Assembly: GCA_964651655.1 (NCBI GenBank)
Contig: CAZYVS010000001.1
Coordinates: 5,132 to 69,131 of the forward strand
Direction of reading: 5' to 3'
Source of the DNA: an uncultured Candidatus Saccharibacteria bacterium
GTDB taxonomy: Bacteria; Patescibacteriota; Minisyncoccia; Phycocordibacterales; Zambryskibacteraceae
Length of the DNA: 64,000 bases
Shown here: positions 23,060-63,708 of the stretch, in pieces
How the letters are laid out: the number at the start of each line of letters is the position of its first letter
Position numbering within the stretch: the stretch's first letter is position 1
Notes under the pieces: generated by a model
Database searches by the model: none
Seen by the model: only the letters and a program-made list of their open reading frames with translations
What the model was told of the DNA's origin: nothing
Program-made: the position numbers and the translations under genes

Positions 23060-23261
23060 TTTCTATATTTCCTCCCCTCTTTTTTCCCATTCCACCAGTA
23101 TGCAACATCCAGCCAATACCACTGGATGTTGGCGCGCAGAACCCTCCAGAGCGCTCTCATGTTTCCTCCTCCTTTCCCTATATAATCCTTCATCTACGGC
23201 AGTCTAACCCCATAATACACCTGCACTTTCTTATCTGCTACTAGAGTTGAAGTGGGTTGAT

Positions 23262-23582
23262 TTATTTAACACGCAGACGAGCTGCGATAGCAAAGTGTAT
23301 AAAATATCTCTCAAGGTCTGACAGACTCGTCTTGTATTTGTTCTCTCCCCAAATAATATCGCAGAAAATTTCTCTAGCTCTTCCCACCTCTCGCAACCGA
23401 CCAAGCCATCTTCTATCTCTAAGAGTTAAGTCAAAGAGTTCTAAGGCTCTATTGGCCGCACTGAAAAAACCATTAGAATCCTTACCATCAAGTTTAGCCA
23501 CTCTCCCAACTTCACTACCGATGTTACCCATTTGCTCAATAAGAGAAAATTTGTCCCAACTTTCCTTAAGACTTTCTCGCAT
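23262..23582 (-). CDS. hypothetical all-alpha small protein (possibly MazG-like NTP pyrophosphohydrolase fold)
   Basis: 106 aa. Second gene of a two-gene minus-strand cassette with a 5-bp spacing. 'IEQMGNIGSEVGRVAK' and 'ALELFDLTL' loosely resemble MazG-like EExxE/ExxD helices. Confidence 0.3.
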   Translation of the reverse strand: MRESLKESWDKFSLIEQMGNIGSEVGRVAKLDGKDSNGFFSAANRALELFDLTLRDRRWLGRLREVGRAREIFCDIIWGENKYKTSLSDLERYFIHFAIAARLRVK

Positions 23583-23587
23583 AAAAC

Positions 23588-23953
23588 TTACTGTTTTACT
23601 CTAGTATTTACAATTGATATTATTTTTTTTCGTACGGCTTCATCTTCTACTCCACGGCTAGTATTACCCGAAAGTGGTTTCAGATTTATCATGGAGTCAA
23701 ACTCAATACATTGATTTCCAGTTTTATCAAGATTTAAATTGATACCCCAAGTATTGTCTCTTTTAGAACCCTTCGTTTCAAGTAATAAAGTCTCGAGGTC
23801 AGAGTGGAATTCTCCCCCCAAAGCCATAATTTCCTGTTCTACATCAATGACTGCTTTGATAATAGTGATAAATTGTTCATGAGCGAGAGTTTTGAGCGTT
23901 TCAAGAGTAATGCTATCCTCAACAATTTTAATCCTAGTTTTATCGTTATCCAT
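23588..23953 (-). CDS. hypothetical protein
   Basis: 121 aa. First gene of the two-gene cassette. No recognisable motif. Confidence 0.35.
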   Translation of the reverse strand: MDNDKTRIKIVEDSITLETLKTLAHEQFITIIKAVIDVEQEIMALGGEFHSDLETLLLETKGSKRDNTWGINLNLDKTGNQCIEFDSMINLKPLSGNTSRGVEDEAVRKKIISIVNTRVKQ

Positions 23954-28092: not shown

Positions 28093-28619
28093 ACAGCAGG
28101 GTCTTCTTCGTTGAAATGTCCTTTGTTATGTTCCACAATTATCTTGGCACCAACTCTGTTTTTCCAAGATTCTTGATTTTCCGGTAAAACATATGGGTCA
28201 TTATCTGAAAAAATTGCTACTGCTTTATTGACAGCATTTCGTATCTTGTCATCATTGAGTGGGGTATTCACCCACGGCCCAGCGATTCGTTCTTCCTCCT
28301 CAGTTTCTAGATTACGAAGATTATAAAATCCGGCCACAAAGACAGCTCCACCGATCTTAACACCCTCCGGCAAAGTTTCGAGATATCTAATGATAGTTTG
28401 ACAACCGATACTATGTCCGACAAAAAATGTATTGGAATCAGGCATACCAACTACTTGTTTTAGAAATGATACCCAAGTTTCTATTTTGGGCTCTGCTGTA
28501 TTGGGCATCGCTGGCACAAAAACCTCAAATCCCTTTGCTTCCAGCTCTTTTTTGATCCATGGAAACCACGCCTCATCCGGACGTCCTCCCCAACCGTGTA
28601 CTATAAAAACTCTTTTCAT
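28044..28619 (-). CDS. alpha/beta hydrolase (YdeN / RBBP9-like serine hydrolase)
   Basis: 'RVFIVHGWGGRPDEAWFPW' and 'FVGHSIGCQTI' (GHSxG nucleophile elbow). 191 aa. Confidence 0.6.
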   Translation of the reverse strand: MKRVFIVHGWGGRPDEAWFPWIKKELEAKGFEVFVPAMPNTAEPKIETWVSFLKQVVGMPDSNTFFVGHSIGCQTIIRYLETLPEGVKIGGAVFVAGFYNLRNLETEEEERIAGPWVNTPLNDDKIRNAVNKAVAIFSDNDPYVLPENQESWKNRVGAKIIVEHNKGHFNEEDPAVWELPSALKAVLGMIK

Positions 28620-29053
28620 AAATCTAAGCTCTTCTTATCATAACCATAGTTCTCTTCATCTACCAGATCAATTTTAGTTGTTCGGAGTATATACCAGGAA
28701 TCTCCTTGCAAAATATCTTCATTTTCTTTTGGTTCTGGATAATCCCTTTTGGTTAAATGTTTGATAGCTAGATCATGTCTTGCTCCATCAATCTTTTCTG
28801 CTTTACCGGAAAATTGTATACCTAAATTTGGCTCCTTACTCTTGTTACTCACAGTAATAGTCCCCGCTACCTGACTATTTTCAATCAAAGCCTTCGAGTG
28901 TCGCACATCCGGATCAGACATCCAGTAGATATTTAAATCTTCATCGTAAACATAGACTAGATCGGCTACCCATAAACCACTCTCGTCTTGCGTCGCCAAA
29001 CTCATCAAGTGTCCCTTATCTAAAACTTCTAATATTTTAGTTTTTATATCCAT
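28616..29053 (-). CDS. pyridoxamine 5'-phosphate oxidase-like FMN-binding split-barrel protein
   Basis: 145 aa. 'GHLMSLATQDESGLWVADLVYVYDEDLNIYWMS' pattern is typical of the PNPOx-like family. Confidence 0.55.
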   Translation of the reverse strand: MDIKTKILEVLDKGHLMSLATQDESGLWVADLVYVYDEDLNIYWMSDPDVRHSKALIENSQVAGTITVSNKSKEPNLGIQFSGKAEKIDGARHDLAIKHLTKRDYPEPKENEDILQGDSWYILRTTKIDLVDEENYGYDKKSLDL

Positions 29054-29383
29054 TTAATTATCTTTCAAGGAAATTACTTGTATTCCTTTATCATCAATAT
29101 CTTCTCTGGGCCAAAACTTTGTCAAATCATCAATCTTCCACTTGCCGATATATCCAACTTTTTTCTCCAATTGTCTGCCTGTATAATTTTTTGTCCCAGG
29201 ATCCCATTCTCTAAGCACTAAAATATCTCCTTCAGCAATATCGAAGTCATTTAAACGCCACTCAAATGTCTTCCTGCCATCAAGGATGGCTTGAAAATAT
29301 TCCGGCCAAACTTTTTTTTCTATTTTTAACATATTATTTGGGCTGACCTCCTCGGTCTCATAAATTATACCGTTAAGCTTCAT
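29054..29383 (-). CDS. ASCH / DUF3850-like domain protein
   Basis: 109 aa. 'KVWPEYFQAILDGRKTFEWRLNDFDIAEGDILVLRE' matches the ASCH beta-barrel consensus (K-x-W-x-x-F-x-x-I-x-x-G-x-K-x-x-E-x-R-x-N-D). Confidence 0.5.
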   Translation of the reverse strand: MKLNGIIYETEEVSPNNMLKIEKKVWPEYFQAILDGRKTFEWRLNDFDIAEGDILVLREWDPGTKNYTGRQLEKKVGYIGKWKIDDLTKFWPREDIDDKGIQVISLKDN

Positions 29384-29430
29384 AAGGATTTTTGATTACT
29401 TTTATTCTACCGTTTTGACGTTCCTTGGAA

Positions 29431-30072
29431 TCATTTATTTTTATACTTTTCGGGTAAGAAACTGTACTCAAGGAAAGTTGTACTTAATAAGTCAGATCCA
29501 TTTCTGGGTGACGCTAAACGTGCAATGTAAAACCTCATCCCATCTACAATCTCTTTGAAGGAATAAATCTGCTCATCTAACGTTTTCTGGTCGACTATTT
29601 TTTTTGCTTCTGATTTCTTTATTGTGTTATTAGTAATATTTTGAACCCTCATCACAGCATGACCGTGCAGCAGAAGGTTTCGCATTTTCCGAAAGTTTTT
29701 TAACCGAGAGATGAGATTTTTATACTTTTCTCTTTCCTGCAAATCCTCTTCTTTGAAGTCAAAATTAAAAGTGTAAAGAAAGACTGACGTCTTATCAATA
29801 AAGTTTATGCTGTCTAGGTGCTTGAATATGTCTAGATCCGGGCTGAACGAATGATCGCGCACTAACTCACGGAAAAAGGCATTCATGCCACTTTCTAAAA
29901 TCAAGTGGAGTGAGATTAGTGAATCGACGATATCTTCTTCGGTAAGTTCAGTGTTATTAAGAAGAGGTACGATCCTTTTCACATTCACAGACCAAACTAT
30001 ATGTTGCTCATCAGTGATGGATATAAGTGTTCCGTATTGTAGGTTTGCACCTTCTGAATCTTGTGTGTACAT
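29431..30072 (-). CDS. hypothetical protein with HEPN-like R-x4-HGH motif (Abi-like?)
   Basis: 213 aa. 'FRKMRNLLLHGHAV' fits the HEPN Rx4-6H consensus seen in Abi/Swt1-type RNases. Otherwise unrecognised. Confidence 0.3.
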   Translation of the reverse strand: MYTQDSEGANLQYGTLISITDEQHIVWSVNVKRIVPLLNNTELTEEDIVDSLISLHLILESGMNAFFRELVRDHSFSPDLDIFKHLDSINFIDKTSVFLYTFNFDFKEEDLQEREKYKNLISRLKNFRKMRNLLLHGHAVMRVQNITNNTIKKSEAKKIVDQKTLDEQIYSFKEIVDGMRFYIARLASPRNGSDLLSTTFLEYSFLPEKYKNK

Positions 30073-30117: not shown

Positions 30118-30366
30118 CTATCTCAAGATGAATAAAGCAAATTTCTTTTCTCGCCTCCATCCTTTAATCTCCGCTTCTCTTTGCCGTGCCTCTTTCAATG
30201 TCTTAAAAGCTTCTTGGTACTTCAATATAACTGGTCTACGCAGTTTTGTGTAATGTGCACCCCACTTCGAATCATTATGTTGTTCTACTCTCCTAACAAG
30301 ATTATTCGTACAACCGACATAGAGAGATTTATCTGCACATTCTAAGATATAGACGAAATACGACAT
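30118..30366 (-). CDS. GIY-YIG nuclease superfamily small protein (UPF0213/YhbQ-like), copy 1
   Basis: 82 aa. 'YFVYILECADKSLYVGCTNNLVRRVEQHN' matches the GIY-(10)-YVG-x-T-x-N-x-x-RR-x-x-H GIY-YIG core. Confidence 0.75.
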   Translation of the reverse strand: MSYFVYILECADKSLYVGCTNNLVRRVEQHNDSKWGAHYTKLRRPVILKYQEAFKTLKEARQREAEIKGWRREKKFALFILR

Positions 30367-30467
30367 GAGAACTTTAGGCCCTTCACTTTCGTTCAGGGAC
30401 TTCTTCTCTCCTGTATATGCTGGCCGCAGGCACTGATGAGCCTTCGTCCAGCGAAGGTGAAGAAGTG

Positions 30468-30538
30468 CTGCGGGGGTAGGAGTCGGACCTACATACGCAG
30501 CTTCAAAGGCTGCTGTCCTGCCGTTAGACGACCCCGCA
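30468..30538 (-). tRNA. tRNA-Gln (anticodon TTG)
   Basis: Hand-folded on the minus strand. Acceptor TGCGGGG/CCCCGCA. D-stem GTCT/GGAC. Anticodon stem GCAGC/GCTGC with loop CTTTGAA (anticodon UUG). T-stem GTAGG/CCTAC with loop TCCGACT. Lies between two GIY-YIG genes. Confidence 0.7.
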
Positions 30539-30540
30539 AA

Positions 30541-30786
30541 TTATTGCAGAAATAGGGTTTTGAGAAACTTTCTACCATTTGCTGTCTTAAGCTGTTTTTC
30601 CCTTTTTCTAGCTTCAGTAAGGTTATCATATTGCTCATGGTAAATCATTACCCATGGTTTATGTCTCTTGGTATAGAAATGCTTACCAGAATTATGTTCA
30701 GCAAGTCTTCTGTCTAAGTTATTGGTCATTCCCACATAACTCTTTTGAACTGAACAACTCTTTAAAACATAAATGTAATAAACCAT
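30541..30786 (-). CDS. GIY-YIG nuclease superfamily small protein (UPF0213/YhbQ-like), copy 2
   Basis: 81 aa. 'YYIYVLKSCSVQKSYVGMTNNLDRRLAEHN' GIY-YIG core. Stop codon is 2 nt before the 5' end of tRNA-Gln(TTG). Confidence 0.75.
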   Translation of the reverse strand: MVYYIYVLKSCSVQKSYVGMTNNLDRRLAEHNSGKHFYTKRHKPWVMIYHEQYDNLTEARKREKQLKTANGRKFLKTLFLQ

Positions 30787-33318: not shown

Positions 33319-34134
33319 TTATTTAAACTTGTAGAATACTTTATTTGTCGTGCGCAAGTCCAGATACAAAACTTTTTTAAGAAAATCCTTCTGAGCTTTG
33401 ATAGAATCATCAGAGAGAAAAGCCTCTAGATTCGAGTGCAACAAAACAGGATCATCCCCTCTTCTCCATATCAATTGTCCGCCATTAGGCAAAAGCAAAT
33501 TATAATCGTCCGCGGTTATCTTCATAGCCGTTGGCTGAAGATTTAATGTTGGCAAAATTTTTATAAATCCCAAAAGCGACTCAAAGTTCTCCGCAGGAAT
33601 AAGTTGCTTGCCTATAGGATTGCCGATCGGCTCTTCCGTACTATAGACAAAGTAAACTCCGTTTGAAAAAGAGGGGGCGGGCGCAAAGATAAATCCTCCC
33701 TTATCCACAAAGAAACATTCATCTTCAATACAATACAGAGCGAAGGGCATACGCTCTTCAACATTTATGACAAGAGTTTGAAATTTGTCTAGGTTTAAAT
33801 CAACAGATCGAAGTCTTGGAAATTTTTCAATGAGACTTTGCTTAATAGCGCGCCGCGGATAGATAAACGCATTGGCGCGAGGAATCATCCAAAGATAATG
33901 ATTGTCAATCAAACTTTGAACAGCTTGGGTCATCTCTTCCCTATCTGCTACATTTTCTCCAGTTATCATTACCGCTGTAATCAGAAATTTTTCCAAACGA
34001 GAAAGATAAATCAGCGTAAAAACTATAGTCAAGACGCCAATTAGAACAAGGGCAAATTTTATACGCCTTCTTTTTTTCTTTTTCTGATAAAATCCGGCCG
34101 AATTTATAACCCTGCCGCTCGAAACTATTTTCAT
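33319..34134 (-). CDS. ftsQ: cell division protein FtsQ/DivIB-like (POTRA domain)
   Basis: Basic N-terminus then TM ('IKFALVLIGVLTIVFTLIYL'). POTRA-like stretch 'LRSVDLNLDKFQTLVINVEERMPFALY...FVDKGGFIFA'. Confidence 0.55.
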   Translation of the reverse strand: MKIVSSGRVINSAGFYQKKKKRRRIKFALVLIGVLTIVFTLIYLSRLEKFLITAVMITGENVADREEMTQAVQSLIDNHYLWMIPRANAFIYPRRAIKQSLIEKFPRLRSVDLNLDKFQTLVINVEERMPFALYCIEDECFFVDKGGFIFAPAPSFSNGVYFVYSTEEPIGNPIGKQLIPAENFESLLGFIKILPTLNLQPTAMKITADDYNLLLPNGGQLIWRRGDDPVLLHSNLEAFLSDDSIKAQKDFLKKVLYLDLRTTNKVFYKFK

Positions 34135-34180
34135 AAAGAAAGTATATCAAACCTCTCAATAGACCATACAAGCCCTCTTA

Positions 34181-34205
34181 CTGTGCAAAGCTCGACTTTG
34201 CACAG
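34181..34205. repeat. REP-like palindromic element, copy 3
   Basis: CTGTGCAAAG-CTCGA-CTTTGCACAG, 10-bp perfect arms. Immediately 3' of the REP-associated transposase gene. Confidence 0.65.
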
Positions 34206-34868
34206 TTATGGCAATAGTTCTTTGGTAATTTCCTTAGCTGGACTACTGGAAACAAATTTTTTATACGACGAAATGCTTTTTTCTTTAGTATAACGATCCG
34301 TTATAATATCCGTTACTAATAATCCTTCAAACCTATTTTTATCAATACAATCTTGATAACTTGACCATGGATAGAGATGCTCTTTTCCCGTCCATCCTTT
34401 TATTTCGCATGGATGTTTATGAATGTATGCCGAGGTATGCATTAATTGTCTGTCTTCGCCAATATGGACACTTTTATACGGACCTTGAAATAAGTGCCCG
34501 CTTTTTTCATGTCTAGTATTAAAATACTTTGTATATGCAGTCAAAACCCTGTGCATATATTTAGAAATGCCATTATCAACTAATTCACGAATAATTATAT
34601 GAAAATGGTTTGGCGCTAAACAGAAAACTACTAGTTCCACAATCCTCTTTTTTAGGATATCATTCTTTAACTCATCCGTAATGTGCAAAGTCGATCTTTG
34701 CACATTTTGGCGTATTTCTCTGCTTATATTTTTTATAACCACTTCTCCTTGAAAAGCCATGAGGAGAAATAAAAATCTTAAGCGATCTTGATCTGTTTCA
34801 AAGATTGGTTGTTTTTGCATTCCCCTGTTAAAGACATGCAAATATTCTCCGGGCGCATGAAATCGCAT
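34206..34868 (-). mobile_element. IS200/IS605-family Y1 transposase, REP-associated tyrosine transposase (RAYT)-like
   Basis: 220 aa. 'YLHVFNRGMQKQPIF' N-terminus. HUH motif 'NHFHIIIRE'. Catalytic-Tyr region 'TAYTKYFNTRHEKSGHLFQGPYKSVHI'. Flanked on both sides by REP-like palindromes of one family and carries one copy in-frame. Confidence 0.7.
34680..34706. repeat. REP-like palindromic element, copy 4 (inside the RAYT ORF, in frame)
   Basis: AATGTGCAAAG-TCGAT-CTTTGCACATT, 11-bp perfect arms. It encodes 'NVQRSTLHI' within the transposase. Confidence 0.6.
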
Positions 34869-36902: not shown

Positions 36903-37760
36903 ATGATACAAAATCTGTCACCCAGAGACTTTCCGGAACTTCTCAAAGAAATACCGGATCCTCCCGCGCGATTGCGCTATGAAGGCGCATTGCCAAAAGC
37001 TGGCAACAAACTCCTGGCCATAGTCGGTTCAAGAAAATATACAAGCTATGGAAGAGAGGTGTGCGAATCCATAATCTCCGGGCTTGCCGGTTCTCCTATT
37101 ACAATCGTTTCCGGCCTGGCCCTCGGCATTGATTCCATCGCTCACCGCGCCAGTCTGCGCGCCGGACTTCAAACTATCGCCATCCCGGGTTCCGGTCTTG
37201 ATAGAAAAGTCCTGCATCCCCACTCTCATGTCAATCTCGCTAATGAAATTGTAGAAAGTGGCGGAGGATTGATTTCGGAATATGACGACACCATGCCTTC
37301 GGGCGCCTGGGCCTTCCCGAGGAGAAACAGAATCATGGCGGGAATGTGTCATACCACTTTGGTTATTGAGGCCGAGAGAAAATCCGGGACACTCATCACT
37401 TCGCGACTGGCTACCGAATACAATCGAGAGGTTGGCTGTGTCCCCGGTCCGGTAAATTCTCCCACCTCGGACGGAGCGCATATGCTTATCCGCCTCGGCG
37501 CGGCGCTGATACGCGACGCCAATGATGTGCGAGAACTTCTGGGATTAAAAAGAATGGATGAAAATCCAACTCTTGTAGATATTGAAGAATTGAGTGATGA
37601 AGAAAAAATTTTTATACAAATTTTGGAAAAGTCATGTCCGCGAGATGAACTTATTCGCCAATCAAAACTCGACATAGGCACCGCCAGCGCCACCCTCTCA
37701 CTTCTAGAAATCAAAGGTTTGATTATCGAAGAACTAGGCGAGGTTAGAAGAACGTTTTAA
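36903..37760 (+). CDS. dprA: DNA processing protein A
   Basis: 'KLLAIVGSRKYTSYGREV...IVSGLALGIDSIAHRASL...IAIPGSGLD' matches the DprA/Smf Rossmann domain. C-terminal winged-helix-like tail. Confidence 0.85.
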   Translation: MIQNLSPRDFPELLKEIPDPPARLRYEGALPKAGNKLLAIVGSRKYTSYGREVCESIISGLAGSPITIVSGLALGIDSIAHRASLRAGLQTIAIPGSGLDRKVLHPHSHVNLANEIVESGGGLISEYDDTMPSGAWAFPRRNRIMAGMCHTTLVIEAERKSGTLITSRLATEYNREVGCVPGPVNSPTSDGAHMLIRLGAALIRDANDVRELLGLKRMDENPTLVDIEELSDEEKIFIQILEKSCPRDELIRQSKLDIGTASATLSLLEIKGLIIEELGEVRRTF

Positions 37761-37845
37761 CTCTATTTATACAAAAAACCGCCCATACCTCCCAATAGAC
37801 GGTTCATAATTTGCTACTCGTATATTCTTGCCTTTTTCAAAAATT

Positions 37846-37998
37846 TTTCTTTTTCCTTGGAGTTAATTCTGGATCTGGGCCAACGAGGTGCCGCCATTTG
37901 GGATTAAGATAACAAATCCCCATTACCACAAGGGCAAGAACACCTATAGCTAGTGCTGGTAAAACTACAACCGATAACAATTCCCTTAGAGTATCCAT
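37846..37998 (-). CDS. possible 50-aa membrane peptide (not in ORF track)
   Basis: Hand translation gives MDTLRELLSVVVLPALAIGVLALVVMGICYLNPKWRHLVGPDPELTPRKKKNF, with a single TM helix. Short and unsupported by other evidence. Confidence 0.2.
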
Positions 37999-38100
37999 AC
38001 TTGGAAATCCTCCTCTATCTGGTTCTTGTCGATTTACATTCTAATATCAATTTACGCTAATTTCTACAAGTAATCAAATCTATGTTTAATCAAAGAAAAA

Positions 38101-38128
38101 GGGGCGAGTCAAAAGTTCGACTCGCCCC
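38101..38128 (-). terminator. intrinsic terminator of ORF 38151..38804
   Basis: GGGGCGAGTC / GACTCGCCCC 10-bp perfect stem. On the minus strand it is followed by TTTTTCTTTG. Confidence 0.55.
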
Positions 38129-38150
38129 ATCTGGGGCTCGCAACGAGCAC

Positions 38151-38804
38151 TCAGTCTGCCAAGCGCGGTTCGTAGAGATTTCGCGCCTGAACGATCAAGT
38201 GCACTTGCTCGAGCTTGAGCGGAGAATGATCCGGTGCCTTAAGAACGCCCTCACCGAGCGTATGGTTGTCGCCGAAGATCCGAGCCCTCTCGGTGTAGAG
38301 ACCGTTGAGCTTGTGTCGCGTCCCGAACATCGGTTGGGACTTCACGTTCTTCGGCTCCTGCTTTGTACCGAGACAGAGCAAGCTTGCTTGTTGAATCTCG
38401 TCCCATGTATGCGGGATCGGAACAGCGAAGATGTCGCCCTGTCGTTTCGAGGCCACTCGGAAAGCTTGCTCGAATTTCGTGATGACCTCCGGCTTCAGCG
38501 CGGCGTAGAACGAATCGTCGCCTTCTCGCTGAAAAGCACGAAACGGCTCGTCTCGCAAACGGACCAGGAACGGACGTTCGTCGGTGCCTCCAAACCAGTA
38601 CTGCGTTTCGGACCCACCGCTTATGATACGGAGCAGAAACTGCTCGCCGTTCATGAGAGGGAAGAACTCCGACTCGGGGTTGTCTGGCAGAACGATGTCT
38701 GTACTTTCTCGGAAAGGCGGAGCGTGTGCACCCCCCTTGTAGCCGAACTGGAGCTTAGCCATTCCGGCTTTCTTCGGAACAGTTCTCATCTTGAAGAGTT
38801 TCAT
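38151..38804 (-). CDS. hypothetical protein (in GC-rich island)
   Basis: 217 aa. Local GC is clearly higher than the surroundings. No recognisable motif. The overlapping 370-aa plus-strand ORF is Arg-rich and looks like an antisense artefact. Confidence 0.45.
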   Translation of the reverse strand: MKLFKMRTVPKKAGMAKLQFGYKGGAHAPPFRESTDIVLPDNPESEFFPLMNGEQFLLRIISGGSETQYWFGGTDERPFLVRLRDEPFRAFQREGDDSFYAALKPEVITKFEQAFRVASKRQGDIFAVPIPHTWDEIQQASLLCLGTKQEPKNVKSQPMFGTRHKLNGLYTERARIFGDNHTLGEGVLKAPDHSPLKLEQVHLIVQARNLYEPRLAD

Positions 38805-38819
38805 CTCATGCCTCCTTTC

Positions 38820-39053
38820 TTAGGCGTGGAGTTGGGGAGCGATCGGGAAGAACAGTTTCGTCCTGCACGCAGGACAGAAGACATAATCACCCGGACCGCT
38901 CGGGTCGGTCTTGTAACAATGACTGCAAAAAGCAACACCGCACGAAGGACAGTTGTAGTCGCAATTCTGCTCTCCTACTTTCGCCCCACAATTAGGGCAA
39001 TCGCGAGGAGAAACAACAACCAGCTCTTTCTGCATCGGTTTCTCCTTTCTCAA
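38820..39053 (-). CDS. small zinc-ribbon protein (in GC-rich island)
   Basis: 77 aa. 'CPNCGAKVGEQNCDYNCPSCGVAFCSHCYKTDPSGPGDYVFCPACRTKL' has multiple CxxC pairs. Confidence 0.45.
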   Translation of the reverse strand: MRKEKPMQKELVVVSPRDCPNCGAKVGEQNCDYNCPSCGVAFCSHCYKTDPSGPGDYVFCPACRTKLFFPIAPQLHA

Positions 39054-39415
39054 AGGACTGTTTTACCGCAATTTTCTAATCGCAGAGCCTACCGGACACC
39101 ATGTCCGATATTGCCGCTTATCGTAGCATGTATTGGTTATGCAGTCAAGGTTCATCGCGTACACTTTTGGCGGGTTTTCGTTTATAAAAAATAATACCAA
39201 ATACTTGCGATCGCAAATAAATGGTAGGACCGGAGTCCCAAAAGACGATCTTTTGGGACATAAAATTTTGCTCTCAATAAATCAAATTTAACGACTACGT
39301 TATAATCTCACGACCGTGAATTAATAACGTATTAATTTATTACACAACTTAAAATCAGAAAAACTTTTTAATAATAAATTTGCAAATAGAAAGTTTCTGT
39401 AGTATCTGTTAAGCA

Positions 39416-41656
39416 ATGCGTTTACTTATAGTAGAGTCGCCGTCGAAGGCCAAGACTATCGAAAAATATCTTGGTAAAGATTTTCGCGTGGTGGCTTCTA
39501 TCGGTCATATCAGAGACCTTCCTAAATCAAATAGAGCCGCCATTGATATACCGGCCGGCTTCGTGCCGCATTACGAAGTGGTGAAAGGAAAGGAGAAAGT
39601 AATTTCCGAAATTAAATCACTGGTAAAAAAGGCCGACGAAGTCTTGCTTGCCACCGACCCAGACCGCGAGGGTGAGGCCATTGCCTGGCACGTAGAAGAA
39701 ACGGTTGGGCTCAAGAATCCAAAACGCGTTGTTTTTTACGAAATTACCAAAGAAGCCGTGGAGGAAGCTATTGAACACCCGAGAGAAATCGATACCAATT
39801 TGAGAGAAGCGCAAGAAGCCAGAAGAGTGCTGGATCGCCTAGTAGGCTACGATCTCTCTGGACTTATCTGGAAAAAAGTGCGTTACGGTCTGTCGGCCGG
39901 CAGAGTGCAATCCCCCGCCCTTAGAATTATCATGGAACGCGAAAGAGAAATTCGCGCGTTTGAGTCAATCACTTTCTGGAAAATTTTTGCAAATTTGGAA
40001 TCCAAAGTCAGACCTTTAAAAGATTCTCAAGGTCTGACCTTTGAATGTTCGGTTGAGCCTACAGACCAGAAAGAAGTGGAAAACATTCTTGAAGCAGGCA
40101 GAAATGGTTCGTGGCAAATAACAGATATTAAAGAAACGAAGGTGGCGCGCGCTCCGCGCGCGCCCTTCATCACCTCAACTCTGCAACAGGCGGCCAGCTC
40201 CCGACTTGGCCTCGCACCGTCTCGCACCATGTACTTTGCCCAAAGACTCTATGAAGCTGGACATATTACTTATATGCGCACAGATTCTACAAATCTTGGA
40301 GCAGCCGCGCGCAAGGAGGTTGAAGAATTGATAAAGAAAAAATACGGAGAAAGTTATTTTGAATCGCATGTTTTTACTAAAAAATCAAAAAACGCCCAAG
40401 AAGCCCACGAAGCCATCAGACCTACGCACATGAAAGTGGAAATGGCCGGAGTGAGCGACGGGGAGAAGAAACTCTACGGTTTAATCTGGCAAAGAACCAT
40501 ATCCAGCCAGATGAAATCAGCGGAAATTATGCGCACGAAGGTGGTGGCGAATATACAAGAAGTTGAGCTTCCACTTGGAAGCTCAACTTCCAAGCGAGAT
40601 TTAATACCTGATTTCTGGCTCAATGGTTCGCGCATCATCTTCGACGGCTGGCTTAAGGCGGACCGCCTATCGGCCGGCGAAGATATTGTCTTACCGAAAC
40701 TTGATATCGGCGAACCATTAAAACTGATAGACATGAATGTTGAGCAAAAAGAAACCCAACCGCCAGCCAGATACTCGGAAGCGGGTCTGGTTAAGGAACT
40801 TGAGAAACGCGGTATCGGTCGACCTTCCACTTATGCTTCTATTATCAAAACTTTGGATGATCGCGGATATGTAGAAAAAAGGGCTAAAGCGCTCTATCCA
40901 ACTGATACCGGCGAGGTAGTCAGCACTTTTCTCGAAGAACATTTTCCTACTTATATCAGCGACTCCTTCACCGCCGAAATGGAAGACGAATTGGATGATA
41001 TTGCCAACGGCGCACGTACCTATAGGAAAACCCTGTCAGACTTTTATACACCATTTCTAAAAGCGGTGGTAGAAAAAGAAAAAGTTCCAAAAGTCACCAA
41101 TCTTGGCCAGGCGCCAGAGGACTTGAAGTGTCCTGTCTGTGGAGCTAACATGATTATCAAGCTTGGCCGAGGCGGCAAGTTCCTGTCATGTGAAAAGTAT
41201 CCGGAGTGTCAGGGAGCCCGCACCATGGAAGGTAAAGAGCTTGAGGGGCCTAAAGATACCGGAGAAATCTGTCCAAAATGTGGCAAGGGAAATCTGACCA
41301 CTCGCGAGGGTAAGTTTGGAATGTTCACCACCTGTTCGCGTTTTCCAAAATGCAAATTTGTTAAAAAGGATAAAGAACAAGAAAAGGCGAACTCCACCGG
41401 AGTAGAATGTCCGATTTGTAAAAATGCCCTGCCTGCCGGCAGGCAGGGCTTCATATCGGAAAGACGCGGACGGTTCGGAGTTTTCTACAGCTGTTCAAAT
41501 TATCCCGATTGCAAATATGCCATCAAGGCCAAGCCCACCGGGGAAGTTTGTAAACTCTGCGATAGTTTAATGATGGAAGGCACTAAAACTATTCCAGAAA
41601 GATGCTCAAATAAAAAATGCCCAAATCACAATCCGCACAAAACCAGCCAGATGTAA
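39416..41656 (+). CDS. topA: DNA topoisomerase I
   Basis: TOPRIM 'MRLLIVESPSKAKTIEKYLG'. Active-site region 'GHITYMRTDS'. C-terminal tandem C4 zinc ribbons ('CPVCGANM...CEKYPEC', 'CPKCGKGNL...CSRFPKC', 'CPICKN...CSNYPDC'). Contains an in-frame 32-nt perfect palindrome. Confidence 0.9.
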   Translation: MRLLIVESPSKAKTIEKYLGKDFRVVASIGHIRDLPKSNRAAIDIPAGFVPHYEVVKGKEKVISEIKSLVKKADEVLLATDPDREGEAIAWHVEETVGLKNPKRVVFYEITKEAVEEAIEHPREIDTNLREAQEARRVLDRLVGYDLSGLIWKKVRYGLSAGRVQSPALRIIMEREREIRAFESITFWKIFANLESKVRPLKDSQGLTFECSVEPTDQKEVENILEAGRNGSWQITDIKETKVARAPRAPFITSTLQQAASSRLGLAPSRTMYFAQRLYEAGHITYMRTDSTNLGAAARKEVEELIKKKYGESYFESHVFTKKSKNAQEAHEAIRPTHMKVEMAGVSDGEKKLYGLIWQRTISSQMKSAEIMRTKVVANIQEVELPLGSSTSKRDLIPDFWLNGSRIIFDGWLKADRLSAGEDIVLPKLDIGEPLKLIDMNVEQKETQPPARYSEAGLVKELEKRGIGRPSTYASIIKTLDDRGYVEKRAKALYPTDTGEVVSTFLEEHFPTYISDSFTAEMEDELDDIANGARTYRKTLSDFYTPFLKAVVEKEKVPKVTNLGQAPEDLKCPVCGANMIIKLGRGGKFLSCEKYPECQGARTMEGKELEGPKDTGEICPKCGKGNLTTREGKFGMFTTCSRFPKCKFVKKDKEQEKANSTGVECPICKNALPAGRQGFISERRGRFGVFYSCSNYPDCKYAIKAKPTGEVCKLCDSLMMEGTKTIPERCSNKKCPNHNPHKTSQM
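40559..40594. repeat. perfect 15+15-bp palindrome (GAAGTTGAGCTTCCA-CT-TGGAAGCTCAACTTC), extended by CAAG to complete an overlapping CTTGGAAG/CTTCCAAG hairpin, inside topA in frame
   Basis: Encodes 'EVELPLGSSTSK'. A related core CACTTGGAAGCTCAAC(C/T)TCCAAG recurs inside miaA (47481..47503), which also encodes 'PLGSSTSK'. Confidence 0.6.
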
Positions 41657-44191: not shown

Positions 44192-44276
44192 GCCGGGATG
44201 GCGGAATTGGTAGACGCACACGACTCAAAATCGTGCGGAGCAATCCATGAGAGTTCAATTCTCTCTCCCGGCACCA
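44192..44276 (+). tRNA. tRNA-Leu (anticodon CAA)
   Basis: Type II tRNA. Acceptor GCCGGGA/TCCCGGC plus A-CCA. Anticodon stem CACGA/TCGTG with loop CTCAAAA. Long variable arm. T-stem GAGAG/CTCTC with loop TTCAATT. Confidence 0.8.
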
Positions 44277-47957: not shown

Positions 47958-48218
47958 ATGTATTACGTATATATTCTAAAAAATCTCAAAACAAAGAATT
48001 TGTATATAGGATACACCCGAAATTTAAGACGTAGAATAAATGAGCATCAGAGCGGAAAGGTATACACAACAAAACGATTAGGACGTGATGTGGACCTCGT
48101 TTACTACGAAGCTTATAAAAATGAGGATGATGCAAGAGATAGGGAGAAAAGTTTTAAAAATTCTGGTTCCGTGTACAATGGACTAGTTAAACGAATAAAA
48201 CGCAGTAGGGGCGATTAG
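47958..48218 (+). CDS. GIY-YIG nuclease superfamily small protein (UPF0213/YhbQ-like), copy 3
   Basis: 86 aa. 'YYVYILKNLKTKNLYIGYTRNLRRRINEHQ' GIY-YIG core. The 3' end overlaps the first 10 nt of the intact tRNA-Trp. Confidence 0.75.
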   Translation: MYYVYILKNLKTKNLYIGYTRNLRRRINEHQSGKVYTTKRLGRDVDLVYYEAYKNEDDARDREKSFKNSGSVYNGLVKRIKRSRGD

Positions 48219-48282
48219 TTAAGTGGTATAACTTCGGTCTCCAAAACCGATATCGGGGGTTCGATTCCCTCATCGCCCGCCA
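48209..48282 (+). tRNA. tRNA-Trp (anticodon CCA)
   Basis: Acceptor GGGCGAT/ATCGCCC plus G-CCA. D-stem GTTA/TAAC. Anticodon stem TCGGT/ACCGA with loop CTCCAAA. T-stem GGGGG/CCCTC with loop TTCGATT. Confidence 0.8.
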
Positions 48283-63114: not shown

Positions 63115-63708
63115 TCACCATCTCTTCGGATAGGCGGCAACGGCGGCCCTCTGCTCATCCGTGAGCTCTTTTGGCTTCCACCCACGAATGATGTCGAAGT
63201 AGCGTTCGCAGACTTTAGGATTATCGACAGCGGCCCATGTTAACACCGCCTTGGTCGCTAGGAGATGGAAAGGTACCGTGCCCTTCTCCTCAATCTCGCA
63301 CAGCCAATCTTCAGCGGTAACCATTTTGAGAGGGCCAAGAACCTCGTCCGGATCATCCCTGTCTACAGTCTCAAAAGTCCTCAGGCACTGTTCCGGCACA
63401 TACACCGGAAAAGCAACCTTGAGATGAATACCGCCCGGGTGGTACTCATCAGGCCCACACCTGACAAGTATAGGCGTCGGCGACAGTATCTTCATCGCAA
63501 ACACCCTGCCACCCCGCGCCTCACTGAAGACACCGTTGAGAAGGGTCTCCAGAATGGATTGACCATTTTTTCCACCTTCCGTGATATGCCGGATGGAAGT
63601 CTTACCTTCACTTTCTATCAGATAAGTCATCCGAGCAATCTCCAGTAAGCCGCTCTTACCATCAATCTTCACGATCGGGGTAGAGACACTATGACTCGTA
63701 ATCTCCAT
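63115..63708 (-). CDS. hypothetical protein
   Basis: 197 aa. No recognisable motif. Not DUF177/YceD-like despite sitting upstream of rpmF. Confidence 0.35.
   Translation of the reverse strand: MEITSHSVSTPIVKIDGKSGLLEIARMTYLIESEGKTSIRHITEGGKNGQSILETLLNGVFSEARGGRVFAMKILSPTPILVRCGPDEYHPGGIHLKVAFPVYVPEQCLRTFETVDRDDPDEVLGPLKMVTAEDWLCEIEEKGTVPFHLLATKAVLTWAAVDNPKVCERYFDIIRGWKPKELTDEQRAAVAAYPKRW

What the first reader, a model, noticed from the sequence alone, without database searches (positions are those of the whole stretch)
38090..39230. Compositionally distinct GC-rich island encoding a 217-aa unknown protein and a multi-CxxC zinc-ribbon protein
The roughly 1.1-kb block between dprA and topA is visibly more GC-rich than the surrounding sequence. 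It carries two co-oriented genes (38820..39053 and 38151..38804) ending in a strong GC-clamp terminator (GGGGCGAGTC/GACTCGCCCC plus a T-run). Its Arg-rich 370-aa antisense ORF is typical of high-GC coding DNA read backwards. A compositional jump of this kind usually marks recent horizontal acquisition. The 217-aa protein has no motif I recognise.
Basis: seen in the sequence. Interest (0 to 1): 0.5.

Follow-up and report, generated by a model that had tools for sequence, protein, structure and literature searches.

The report
Imported two-gene cassette, unknown enzyme-like protein
A 1-kb GC-rich stretch between two housekeeping genes of an ultra-small groundwater bacterium is a horizontally imported, self-contained two-gene unit. 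Its main protein belongs to an uncharacterised family shared by ultra-small bacteria, ultra-small archaea and phages, and its function is still unknown.

Summary
Window 38100-39060 has 0.55 GC against 0.44 for the window, making it the strongest 1-kb GC and tetranucleotide outlier in 64 kb. The 217-aa gene has GC3 0.67 (z = 3.7).

It is an insertion. In every close relative (dprA 72-90% identical), dprA and topA abut, separated by 37-190 bp, and the block is absent.

The inserted unit runs from about 38091 to 39150 on the minus strand. It is self-contained: a sigma-70-type promoter, a 71-aa protein with four CxxC pairs, the 217-aa protein, and a 12-bp-stem terminator. No recombinase or terminal repeats were found. 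Copies at 69-82% nucleotide identity sit in unrelated genomic contexts elsewhere. Both genes are under purifying selection (dN/dS 0.05 and 0.10).

Zinc-binding modules accompany the domain in three different arrangements. Invariant Asp, Glu, His, Arg and Gln residues, together with recurrent Nudix, NadR-like kinase and ThyX neighbours, suggest a nucleotide-related enzyme. That step is inference only.

As an island it is ordinary. Its cargo is uncharacterised.

The parts
38091..38128 (-). Intrinsic terminator of the cassette: stem GGGGCGAGTCGA/TTGACTCGCCCC at 38101-38128, followed by a T-run at 38091-38100.
   Evidence: One search finds a 12-bp stem with 8 G-C pairs and the tail TTTTTCTTTG. The hairpin is conserved after the homologous gene in L049/L050 and L051-L053, which lie in other genomic contexts. 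In L051-53, blastn homology runs through it to position 38096.
38151..38804 (-). Gene for the 217-aa protein (p217), a member of an uncharacterised family. Conserved motifs: WFGGTDE.PFL, RQGDIF, GTRH, APDH, Q206, and a C-terminal Asp.
   Evidence: ORF listed. 122 homologues found and 570 representatives at 50% identity. Invariant residues. AlphaFold model pLDDT 95.1. No Pfam, NCBIfam, PADLOC or PDB match. dN/dS 0.047 against the L048 copy.
38805..38819 (-). 15-nt spacer between the two genes, carrying the p217 ribosome-binding site (GAAAGGAGG).
   Evidence: Read directly from the sequence. The same 15-nt gap is present in L048-L050.
38820..39035 (-). Gene for the 71-aa protein with four CxxC pairs (two predicted zinc sites). 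The mechanical ORF begins at a TTG at 39053.
   Evidence: called as 71 aa. Pfam zinc-ribbon, IBR and DZR matches are all sub-threshold. Only 6 homologues were found. Homologues lie upstream of p217 in L006/7, L048-50 and L057. dN/dS 0.105.
39036..39119 (-). 5' leader of the cassette, with the ribosome-binding site for the zinc-ribbon gene and two small hairpins. It is partly conserved with L049.
   Evidence: GGCTCTGCGATTAGAAAAT(T/C)G(C/T)GG is shared with L049/L050. No Rfam match.
39120..39148 (-). Sigma-70-type promoter of the cassette: TTGACT, 17 nt, TACGAT, with a TG extension.
   Evidence: The equivalent TTGACT-17-TATAAT is found in L049 and TTGACT-17-TACTAT in L006, at the same relative position.
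38082..39194 (+). 370-aa antisense ORF. It is spurious, a by-product of GC-rich coding DNA on the other strand.
   Evidence: Arg is 12.7% against 5.0% in the window's proteins. The two minus-strand genes, not this frame, are the ones conserved under purifying selection.
38067..38082 (.). Left copy of an imperfect 16-nt direct repeat (CAAGTAATCAAATCTA). The partner lies at 39275-39290. It may be junction microhomology or may be chance.
   Evidence: family D2: 13 of 16 positions match in AT-rich DNA. This is weak evidence.
39275..39290 (.). Right copy of the imperfect direct repeat (CAATAAATCAAATTTA).
   Evidence: family D2.
37837..37998 (-). Host-side landmark, not part of the cassette: a 53-aa single-pass membrane protein gene (tm53).
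   Evidence: A 75%-identical homologue, with 81% nucleotide identity over 37835-38077, lies in relative L011 without the cassette. This fixes the left border between 38078 and 38096.
39378..39418 (+). Host-side landmark: the conserved topA leader and promoter (TTTGCAAATAGAAAGTTTCTGTAGTATCTGTTAAGCAATG).
   Evidence: It is present directly after dprA in L017 and within 40-190 bp of dprA in L010, L012, L013, L016, L018, L019 and L046. Everything from 37761 to about 39377 is therefore extra relative to the minimal relatives.

Best explanation
The island is a horizontally acquired, self-contained expression cassette of about 1.06 kb (about 38091-39150, minus strand). It lies in the variable dprA-topA spacer of a Candidatus Zambryskibacteria (Patescibacteria) genome.

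Shown:
- It carries its own promoter, leader, two translationally close genes and a terminator.
- It is absent from all relatives examined.
- Related copies lie in unrelated contexts in other genomes.
- Both genes are under purifying selection.
- It encodes no recombinase, and no convincing terminal repeats were found.

Its anatomy is that of a phage 'moron', but in a cellular genome.

Inferred: integration was by illegitimate or flank-homology recombination at a spacer that tolerates insertions.

Inferred, moderate confidence: the cargo is a two-subunit protein. A 71-aa two-zinc module works together with the 217-aa protein. The basis is that zinc-binding modules accompany this domain in three independent arrangements: a separate upstream gene, an insertion into the domain, and an N-terminal DnaJ-type CxxCxGxG finger in the phage homologues.

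Inferred, low confidence (about 0.3): the 217-aa protein is an enzyme. Its active site would be built from the invariant Asp75/Glu76, Arg121-Gln122-Gly123-Asp124, Thr162/His164, Asp192/His193 and Gln206, and it would act on a nucleotide-derived substrate (NAD, ADP-ribose, or the dNMP/dNTP pool). It would be an accessory gene exchanged among ultra-small symbionts and their phages.
For: Composition outlier.

Empty site: ten relatives with dprA 72-90% identical have a dprA-topA spacer of 37-190 bp, and none of the 37 dprA loci fetched contains p217.

Independent assemblies show the same junctions.

Cassette borders and shared promoter and terminator: 81.7% nucleotide identity over 966 bp to L048-50, which lie beside PilO-like genes. 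L051-53 lie between TrmB-like and Ddl genes, L005 between rplS/tRNA-Leu and nusA, and L006 after a GH53-like gene.

Purifying selection: dN/dS 0.047 for p217 and 0.105 for the zinc-ribbon gene.

Family: 570 representative clusters, nearly all single-domain proteins of 200-260 aa. Named members come from Patescibacteria lineages and from Nanoarchaeia, Pacearchaeota and Woesearchaeota.

Phage carriage: L054 encodes a DNA polymerase, a Sak4-like protein, SSB and ThyX, with p217 ending 1 nt before thyX. L055 encodes an endolysin.

Structure and conservation: 17 invariant columns in 38 diverse sequences. Confident model, pLDDT 95.1, pTM 0.88.

Remote homology to the actinophage phrog_29643 C-terminal domain: hhalign 98.2%, E = 5e-14. 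It shares D/E, LKP, RQGD, T.H, PDH and H.

Zinc association: upstream gene; insertion in P0092, P0093, P0098 and P0109; DnaJ-type finger before the domain in 11 of 27 phage proteins.

Nucleotide-related neighbours: a divergent wHTH-Nudix gene in 8 of 72 groups; an AAA_28 (NadR-kinase-like) gene upstream in 5 groups, overlapping p217 in 3 of them; ThyX, dCMP deaminase, MazG-like and OMP decarboxylase genes in several.
Against: - No neighbour is universal, and most contexts are plain housekeeping genes. The nucleotide link rests on a minority of loci: 8 and 5 of 72 groups, of which only 42 have at least 1 kb of upstream flank.
- No biochemical precedent exists for the motifs.
- The fold has no solved neighbour, so nothing anchors the active-site proposal. 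I could not inspect coordinates to check that the invariant residues cluster.
- The zinc-ribbon partner is absent from many copies (L005, L008). In about 8 groups it is replaced by an unrelated small SH3-like protein, so an obligate two-subunit enzyme is not established.
- No integration mechanism was identified.
- dS to the nearest copy is about 1.3, so neither the donor nor the date is known.
- Synonymous-codon likelihood is not an outlier (z = -1.3).
- All genomes involved are metagenome-assembled.
Confidence: 0.7

Rival explanations
1. The pair is a toxin-antitoxin-like or abortive-infection/defence module. The 217-aa protein would be a toxic effector, held in check or triggered by the small upstream zinc-ribbon protein, or in other copies by the SH3-like protein. 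Its patchy spread would reflect selfish addiction or selection by phages.
For: - A small upstream gene lies 15 nt from a larger downstream gene, under one promoter and one terminator.
- Partner families swap while the core stays constant: zinc ribbon, SH3-like, p82, p84, Cys-rich 158 aa.
- Distribution is patchy and the insertion sites are intergenic.
- The family occurs in phages.
- There are invariant catalytic-looking residues.
Against: - PADLOC gives no match for p217, its partner or eight recurrent neighbours.
- No known toxin or antitoxin domain is found.
- Intact solo copies retain all invariant residues (L005, L008).
- In some members the zinc ribbon is fused inside the protein, which is atypical for an antitoxin.
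- In phage L054 the gene sits in the replication/nucleotide module, coupled to thyX.
- GC of the gene tracks host GC in most loci, so the family is long-resident rather than constantly turning over.
Confidence: 0.15
2. The 217-aa protein is a novel site-specific nuclease or recombinase-like selfish gene. It would promote its own insertion, like a free-standing homing endonuclease, with the zinc ribbon providing DNA binding.
For: - The cassette moves without any recognisable integrase or transposase and lands between conserved housekeeping genes.
- A zinc ribbon would fit nucleic-acid binding.
- Acidic and His invariant residues could bind a metal.
- An imperfect 16-nt direct repeat flanks 38083-39274.
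Against: - No match to any nuclease family by sequence or fold.
- Insertion sites share no common target gene or sequence.
- tRNA adjacency is not enriched: 4 of 72 groups.
- No terminal inverted repeats.
- Many copies look long-resident, with ameliorated GC.
- The direct repeat matches at 13 of 16 positions in AT-rich DNA and may be chance.
Confidence: 0.1
3. There was no transfer. The block is either a native gene pair whose GC reflects amino-acid content or expression level, or a mis-assembled or mis-binned fragment.
For: - GC in parts of the neighbouring dprA reaches 0.55-0.57 in 200-bp windows.
- Synonymous-codon likelihood of p217 is within the host range (z = -1.3).
- The genome is a MAG.
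Against: - The excess is largest at third codon positions: GC3 0.67 against 0.44.
- The block is absent from every relative at this locus.
- Identical junctions occur in four assemblies from separate runs.
- The conserved topA leader and the tm53 region bracket the block exactly where relatives are contiguous or carry other cargo.
Confidence: 0.03

Closest known systems
Phage 'morons' (autonomous promoter-gene-terminator units of atypical composition inserted between conserved genes of lambdoid phages; from my own knowledge of the Hendrix/Juhala description)
   Same: It has the same anatomy: its own sigma-70 promoter, one or two genes and a strong intrinsic terminator. Its base composition differs from both neighbours. 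It sits precisely in a spacer between two conserved genes that abut in relatives, and it carries no mobility gene of its own.
   Different: It sits in a cellular (Patescibacteria) chromosome with no prophage around it; the neighbours are serS, dprA, topA and relA/spoT. The cargo family also occurs as an apparently long-resident gene in many genomes.
Actinophage phrog_29643 proteins (e.g. Microbacterium phage RubyRalph gp90, 487 aa, function unknown)
   Same: The C-terminal domain of about 135 aa is homologous to p217 residues 65-205 (hhalign 98.2%, E = 5e-14; Foldseek BFVD hit E = 2e-6). It has the same invariant D/E, LKP, RQGD, T.H and PDH motifs, and a zinc-binding motif lies next to the domain.
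   Different: The phage proteins have about 330 extra N-terminal residues. They lack p217's N-terminal beta region of about 65 aa and its invariant C-terminal Asp. Sequence identity is only about 31% over the core. Neither family has a known function.
Type II toxin-antitoxin or two-gene defence cassettes
   Same: A compact, mobile two-gene operon with a small upstream partner. Partners swap between copies, and the phyletic pattern is patchy.
   Different: No homology to any catalogued toxin, antitoxin or defence protein. Solo and fused forms exist, and no DNA-binding antitoxin domain is present.
NrtR/NadR-type NAD-salvage gene neighbourhoods (Nudix-related regulators, ribosylnicotinamide kinase; from my own knowledge)
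   Same: In a minority of loci p217 is divergently paired with a wHTH-Nudix gene. The closest solved relatives of that gene are ADP-ribose pyrophosphatases. In other loci p217 is translationally coupled to an AAA_28 kinase whose only PDB match is a NadR-type NMN adenylyltransferase/kinase.
   Different: The domain order of the Nudix protein (wHTH then Nudix) is the reverse of NrtR. No other NAD-salvage gene was seen. The window's own copy has none of these neighbours. The link is a lead, not a test.

Membership tests
Horizontally acquired genomic islet | Base composition outside the host's range | tested here: met
   1-kb GC z = 4.0; gene GC3 0.67 against 0.443 +/- 0.062 (z = 3.7); top tetranucleotide outlier.
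Horizontally acquired genomic islet | Absent from the orthologous site in close relatives | tested here: met
   Ten relatives with dprA 72-90% identical have dprA-topA spacers of 37-190 bp. No p217 in any of the 37 dprA loci fetched.
Horizontally acquired genomic islet | Homologous DNA in unrelated genomic contexts elsewhere | tested here: met
   69-82% nucleotide identity to cassettes beside PilO-like, TrmB/Ddl, rplS/nusA and GH53-like genes.
Integrative mobile element (IS, transposon, integrative island, integron cassette) | Encodes or adjoins a transposase/integrase and has terminal repeats, att sites or attC | tested here: not met
   Only two ORFs, neither recombinase-like. No terminal inverted repeats. 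No tRNA nearby; the nearest is at 44192. tRNA adjacency is not enriched across the family. It has its own promoter, unlike integron cassettes. The only candidate duplication is a 13/16 imperfect repeat.
Type II toxin-antitoxin module | Toxin and antitoxin belong to recognised families, and the pairing is obligate | tested here: not met
   No Pfam, NCBIfam or PADLOC family for either gene. Intact solo p217 copies exist in L005 and L008, and fused forms exist.
Known anti-phage defence systems (PADLOC 2.0) | Match to a system protein model | tested here: not met
   Zero matches for p217 and the zinc-ribbon protein. Only a generic weak Nudix hit among ten recurrent neighbours.
Zinc-ribbon / double zinc-ribbon proteins (Pfam DZR, Zn_Ribbon_1 and relatives) | Paired CxxC knuckles, and a score above the family's gathering threshold | tested here: inconclusive
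   Four CxxC pairs are visible in the sequence. All 22 Pfam matches are below their cut-offs: best are Siva at 23.5 against 26.2 and DZR_2 at 16.5 against 27. Metal binding was not tested.
phrog_29643 (actinophage about 500-aa proteins) | Full-length match to the family profile | tested here: not met
   p217 against phrog_29643 gives only E = 0.16 over 40 residues. The homology is limited to the C-terminal domain and is seen only by profile-profile and fold comparison. The two share a domain but are not the same family.

The most novel reading that the evidence does not exclude
The 217-aa protein would define a previously undescribed enzyme fold that works with a zinc-binding module. It would be traded among Patescibacteria, DPANN archaea and phages as a small autonomous cassette. 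It would act on the nucleotide or NAD/ADP-ribose pool, and so be a new player in the metabolism of, or virus-host conflict in, ultra-small symbionts that depend on salvaged nucleotides.
Probability: 0.25. Interest if true: 0.65.

Novelty: new member of a known kind. Interest (0 to 1): 0.4.

Why it matters
As a genomic event it is routine. Horizontal transfer is already documented as common in Patescibacteria, with up to 13% of genome length attributed to it (PMC12455944).

The value lies in the cargo. It is a compact, strongly conserved protein family that no database has curated. Its predicted structure is confident yet has no solved relative. The family is shared by the two radiations of ultra-small symbionts and by phages. 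Castelle et al. [quoted passage not shown]

The family is small (about 217 aa), soluble-looking, and has a clear set of invariant polar residues and a defined partner. That makes it a tractable target for structure determination and enzymology.

The clean promoter-to-terminator unit also gives a concrete example of moron-like gene flow into streamlined genomes that lack obvious mobile-element machinery.

Tried and rejected
Function searches that found nothing:
- Pfam, NCBIfam, PHROGs and PADLOC on p217 gave nothing significant. Scanning all 38 aligned members gave only zinc-ribbon hits in the four fused members.
- PDB sequence searches with p217, the family profile and the phage-family profile gave only chance-level hits.
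- The afdb50 library was not available.
- PADLOC on ten recurrent neighbours found nothing.
- A full-text search for the motifs RQGDIF and FGGTDE found no paper.

Searches for other carriers or elements:
- Plasmid collection: no match.
- The first viral-contig scan with the 38-sequence alignment failed because it was too diverse. It was repeated with a 14-sequence alignment.
- Rfam on 37000-40000: nothing.

Mobility signatures:
- tRNA-adjacent integration was rejected. No tRNA lies near the island, and only 4 of 72 family groups have a tRNA within 800 bp, which is about the chance expectation.
- Terminal inverted repeats or a MITE-like repeat were not found. The hairpin at 39235-39259 is unique in the window.

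Context and composition:
- No conserved gene neighbourhood exists. The most frequent Pfam neighbour, NUDIX, covers 6 of 150 neighbouring proteins.
- The idea that the gene is always GC-richer than its host, which would mark a constantly mobile gene, was rejected. The mean excess is only +0.036, and GC tracks the host over 0.34-0.64.
- A possible shared terminator remnant with L015 (TTGGCGGGTTTTCGTTT) is too short to interpret.
Full report
OBSERVATION

The block is real and sits at the stated place. 200-bp windows between 38100 and 38900 have 0.54-0.585 GC. The flanks have 0.35-0.39 and 0.30-0.38. The highest 1-kb GC value in the whole 64-kb window is 0.549, starting at 38101. The window mean is 0.442 (sd 0.027, z = 4.0), and the best value outside the island is 0.493.

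Against 53 long ORFs of the window (GC3 0.443 +/- 0.062, maximum 0.576), the 217-aa gene has GC3 0.670 (z = 3.7) and GC 0.558 (z = 3.1). The zinc-ribbon gene is less extreme, with GC3 0.54. The same kilobase is the top tetranucleotide outlier. Synonymous-codon likelihood is not an outlier (z = -1.3).

Both minus-strand ORFs, the terminator and the 370-aa antisense ORF are as described. The antisense ORF is 12.7% Arg against 5.0% in the window's proteins. It is a by-product of GC-rich coding DNA on the other strand.

There are two corrections. The GC-rich part ends near 39060. The zinc-ribbon gene most likely starts at the ATG at 39035, giving 71 aa, as it is called in independent assemblies.

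WHERE THE WINDOW COMES FROM

The 217-aa protein is identical to a hypothetical protein of a Candidatus Zambryskibacteria MAG (GCA_016185455.1, contig JACPNM010000001.1). The same serS-dprA-tm53-p217-Zn-topA arrangement is found, with all gene products 100% identical, in three Logan assemblies of separate sequencing runs. The junctions are therefore not an assembly artefact.

ANATOMY

On the minus strand the unit reads as follows.
- A promoter: TTGACT, 17 nt, TACGAT with a TG extension, at 39148-39120.
- A leader of about 80 nt.
- The 71-aa gene with four CxxC pairs (39035-38820).
- A 15-nt spacer with the ribosome-binding site GAAAGGAGG.
- The 217-aa gene (38804-38151).
- A 12-bp-stem terminator with a T-run (38128-38091).

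There is no recombinase gene and no terminal inverted repeat. No tRNA lies nearby; the nearest is at 44192. There is no Rfam match.

IT IS AN INSERTION

I fetched 37 dprA loci from species-representative genomes and located serS, dprA, topA and relA in them. The serS-dprA-topA-relA order is conserved. In ten relatives with dprA 72-90% identical (L010, L012, L013, L016-L019, L021, L022, L046), the dprA stop and the topA start are 37-190 bp apart. In L017 the dprA stop codon is followed at once by a roughly 40-nt topA leader, TTGCAAATAAAAAGTTTCTGTAGTATCTGTTAAGCAATG. That leader is nearly invariant in the group and lies at 39378-39418 in the window. None of the 37 loci contains a p217 homologue.

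Everything from 37761 to about 39377 is therefore extra. Part of it, the 53-aa membrane-protein gene and its promoter (37835-38077), is shared with relative L011, which lacks the cassette. That fixes the left border of the cassette between 38078 and 38096.

The dprA-topA spacer is a recurrently variable site. Other lineages carry 0.4-2.9 kb of unrelated cargo there: an IS with an rve transposase, small membrane proteins, a prepilin-like gene, ferric-reductase-like genes, and an ABC transporter.

THE SAME CASSETTE IS FOUND ELSEWHERE

The nearest copy (87% amino-acid and 81.7% nucleotide identity over 966 bp, L048-L050) lies beside PilO-like genes. Other copies lie between rplS/tRNA-Leu and nusA (L005, 70% amino-acid identity), after a GH53-like gene (L006/7, 62%), and between a TrmB-like gene and ddl (L051-53, 63%).

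The alignments begin just upstream of the -35 hexamer: TTGACT-17-TATAAT in L049 and TTGACT-17-TACTAT in L006. They end just after the conserved GGGGCGAG...CTCGCCCC terminator. The transferred unit therefore runs from promoter to terminator.

Both genes are under purifying selection: dN/dS is 0.047 for p217 and 0.105 for the zinc-ribbon gene against L048/49. dS is about 1.3, however, so the donor is not identified. L006 has the same gene pair in a host of 0.57 GC, so a GC-richer Patescibacteria donor is plausible.

Across 53 loci with adequate flanks, the gene's GC (0.34-0.64) tracks the host's. The mean excess is only +0.036, and excesses above 0.1 occur in a few loci only, including this one. 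The family is thus old and mostly resident, with occasional recent transfers.

THE 217-AA PROTEIN

It has no Pfam, NCBIfam, PADLOC or significant PHROG match, and no PDB sequence match, either alone or as a family profile.

The word-indexed search gave 122 homologues. An exhaustive profile search gave 570 representatives at 50% identity, 324 of them at E <= 1e-30. Nearly all are single-domain proteins of 200-260 aa.

Named members come from Zambryski-, Sung-, Colwell-, Berkel- and Parcubacteria, and from Nanoarchaeia, Pacearchaeota and Woesearchaeota. Two IMG/VR contigs also carry full-length members. In L054, p217 ends 1 nt before thyX, in a module with a DNA polymerase, a Sak4-like annealase and SSB. 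L055 carries an endolysin and a methyltransferase.

Thirty-eight diverse members share 17 invariant columns: F71 G72 G73 E76 F79 L80 P105 R121 Q122 G123 D124 T162 H164 G186 H193 Q206, and the C-terminal residue D217.

The only structural hit is one BFVD phage protein (E = 2e-6). tblastn against phage genomes gives weak hits to Microbacterium phage proteins. Profile-profile comparison confirms that p217 residues 65-205 are homologous to the C-terminal domain of these roughly 500-aa proteins (phrog_29643). Probability is 97% against one sequence. It rises to 98.2% (E = 5e-14) against a 27-sequence alignment. The shared motifs are D/E, LKP, RQGDIFA, T.H, PDH and H. That phage family (396 or more members) is also unannotated.

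ZINC MODULES GO WITH THE DOMAIN

The 71-aa protein has only six detectable homologues. It precedes p217 in four separate lineages: the window, L006/7, L048-50 and L057. In P0092, P0093, P0098 and P0109 a CxxC...CxxC ribbon is inserted inside p217, after residue about 40. In the phage homologues a DnaJ-type CxxCxGxG finger lies immediately before the domain. Three independent architectures argue for a functional, probably physical, partnership.

In about eight other lineages the adjacent small gene is instead an unrelated SH3-like protein (QVCVFTN...DGKRC.IVRLK...EW.QGEPEYV). Other lineages have different small partners, or none.

NEIGHBOURS

I grouped the loci into 72 groups by p217 identity; 42 of them have at least 1 kb of upstream flank. 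No neighbour is universal.

Recurrent neighbours are:
- a divergently transcribed wHTH-Nudix gene in 8 groups, whose closest solved relatives are ADP-ribose pyrophosphatase and MutT;
- an AAA_28 P-loop kinase upstream in 5 groups, overlapping p217 in 3, whose only PDB match is a NadR-type NMN adenylyltransferase/kinase;
- ThyX, dCMP deaminase, MazG-like and OMP-decarboxylase genes in a few loci

.

None of ten recurrent neighbours matches a defence model. tRNA adjacency is at chance level.

MOST LIKELY EXPLANATION

Shown: this is a horizontally acquired, autonomous promoter-to-terminator cassette in a spacer that tolerates insertions. Its anatomy is that of a phage moron, in a cellular genome.

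Inferred, moderate confidence: the two products act together.

Inferred, low confidence (about 0.3): p217 is an enzyme. It would use the invariant acidic, His, Arg and Gln residues, and it would act on a nucleotide-derived substrate. Its exchange among ultra-small symbionts and phages would then reflect nucleotide or NAD economy, or conflict over it.

I could not identify the integration mechanism. An imperfect 16-nt direct repeat (13 of 16 positions) at 38067-38082 and 39275-39290 may be junction microhomology or may be chance.

RIVALS

- A toxin-antitoxin or defence module (0.15). This fits the small swappable partner and the patchy spread. It does not fit the intact solo and fused forms, the absence of any catalogued domain, or the position in a phage replication module.
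- A self-mobilising nuclease (0.10). This fits the lack of other mobility genes, but nothing positive supports it.
- A native gene or an artefact (0.03). This is contradicted by GC3, by the empty sites in relatives and by four concordant assemblies.

COMPARISON AND NOVELTY

Horizontal transfer into Patescibacteria genomes is well documented: hundreds of islands and transferred genes, amounting to up to 13% of genome length (PMC12455944). The island itself is therefore ordinary.

The cargo is not catalogued. It is a conserved family with a confident model that has no solved relative. It is shared by Patescibacteria, DPANN archaea and phages. [quoted passage not shown] No paper in the library contains its motifs.

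I rate the finding a new member of a known kind (a small acquired gene cassette), with interest 0.4. If the enzyme and new-fold reading holds (probability about 0.25), it would deserve about 0.65.

Noticed in passing
window 37761-39377; loci L011, L014, L015, L020, L024, L029, L031-L033, L035: The dprA-topA adjacency is conserved far beyond this group, even in Peptoniphilus and Rickettsiales loci. In about ten lineages, however, the spacer holds 0.4-2.9 kb of unrelated cargo: an IS with an rve transposase plus a retropepsin-like pair, small membrane proteins, a prepilin-like gene, ferric-reductase-like plus cytochrome-b5-like genes, and an ABC transporter. It behaves as a recurrent insertion spot.
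   Followed up: partly
window 39378-39418 and the equivalent position in L010-L020, L046: A roughly 40-nt sequence just upstream of the topA start codon (TTTGCAAATAAAAAGTTTCTGTAGTATCTGTTAAGCAATG) is nearly invariant across relatives whose proteins are only 75-90% identical. It contains a short inverted repeat (AGAAAGTTTCT). It may be an autoregulatory leader or promoter.
   Followed up: no
window 39190-39340: The AT-rich stretch between the cassette and the topA leader holds three consecutive palindromes or hairpins: 39195-39226, a perfect 11-bp stem at 39235-39259, and 39296-39331. It has no homologue in any fetched locus and no second copy in the window. Origin and role are unknown.
   Followed up: partly
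window 30118..30366 (-), 30541..30786 (-), 47958..48218 (+): Three stand-alone GIY-YIG ORFs of 81-86 aa. Two flank tRNA-Gln (30467-30538), and one overlaps tRNA-Trp (48209-48282) by 10 nt. They may be remnants or miniature homing-endonuclease-like genes.
   Followed up: no
window 33319..34868 (-): A low-GC block (0.34-0.38) holds an IS200/IS605-type Y1 transposase (220 aa, 34206..34868) and an adjacent 271-aa gene. It is a second compositional island, of the opposite sign.
   Followed up: no
window 63115..63708 (-): A 197-aa ORF with GC 0.524 and GC3 0.576. After p217 it is the most GC-rich gene in the window and may be another acquired gene.
   Followed up: no
window 23257-23953 and 28616-30072: Further low-GC gene runs (GC 0.34-0.40, GC3 0.28-0.40), including small ORFs. 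The ORF at 23257..23604 has the worst synonymous-codon fit in the window.
   Followed up: no
L014 6597-8094: In this relative's dprA-topA spacer, the peptide tail GFRLYVIKILYTSNSYDREL is encoded twice. This implies a direct repeat of roughly 60-100 nt flanking a 174-aa ORF, and so a possible duplication made by an insertion.
   Followed up: no
L051-53, L056, L058, L061, L067, L070, L074, L079, L084 (upstream of p217); L006 8670-8888 (downstream): A small unannotated SH3-like protein family (about 70-100 aa; QVCVFTN..DGKRC.IVRLK..EW.QGEPEYV..F) is an alternative tight partner of p217, with 10-21-nt gaps. A loosely similar 99-aa ORF lies in L011's dprA-topA spacer.
   Followed up: partly
L096, L063/64, L080, L114: A conserved three-gene arrangement: a divergent wHTH-Nudix gene, then p217, then an unannotated 77-82-aa protein (..W.ETF.T..ELR.F.RG.QAG). 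A second arrangement, AAA_28 kinase then p217 then an unannotated 257-aa protein, occurs in low-GC loci L108, L113 and L119; L117 and L130 have the p217 and 257-aa pair without a detected AAA_28 gene.
   Followed up: partly
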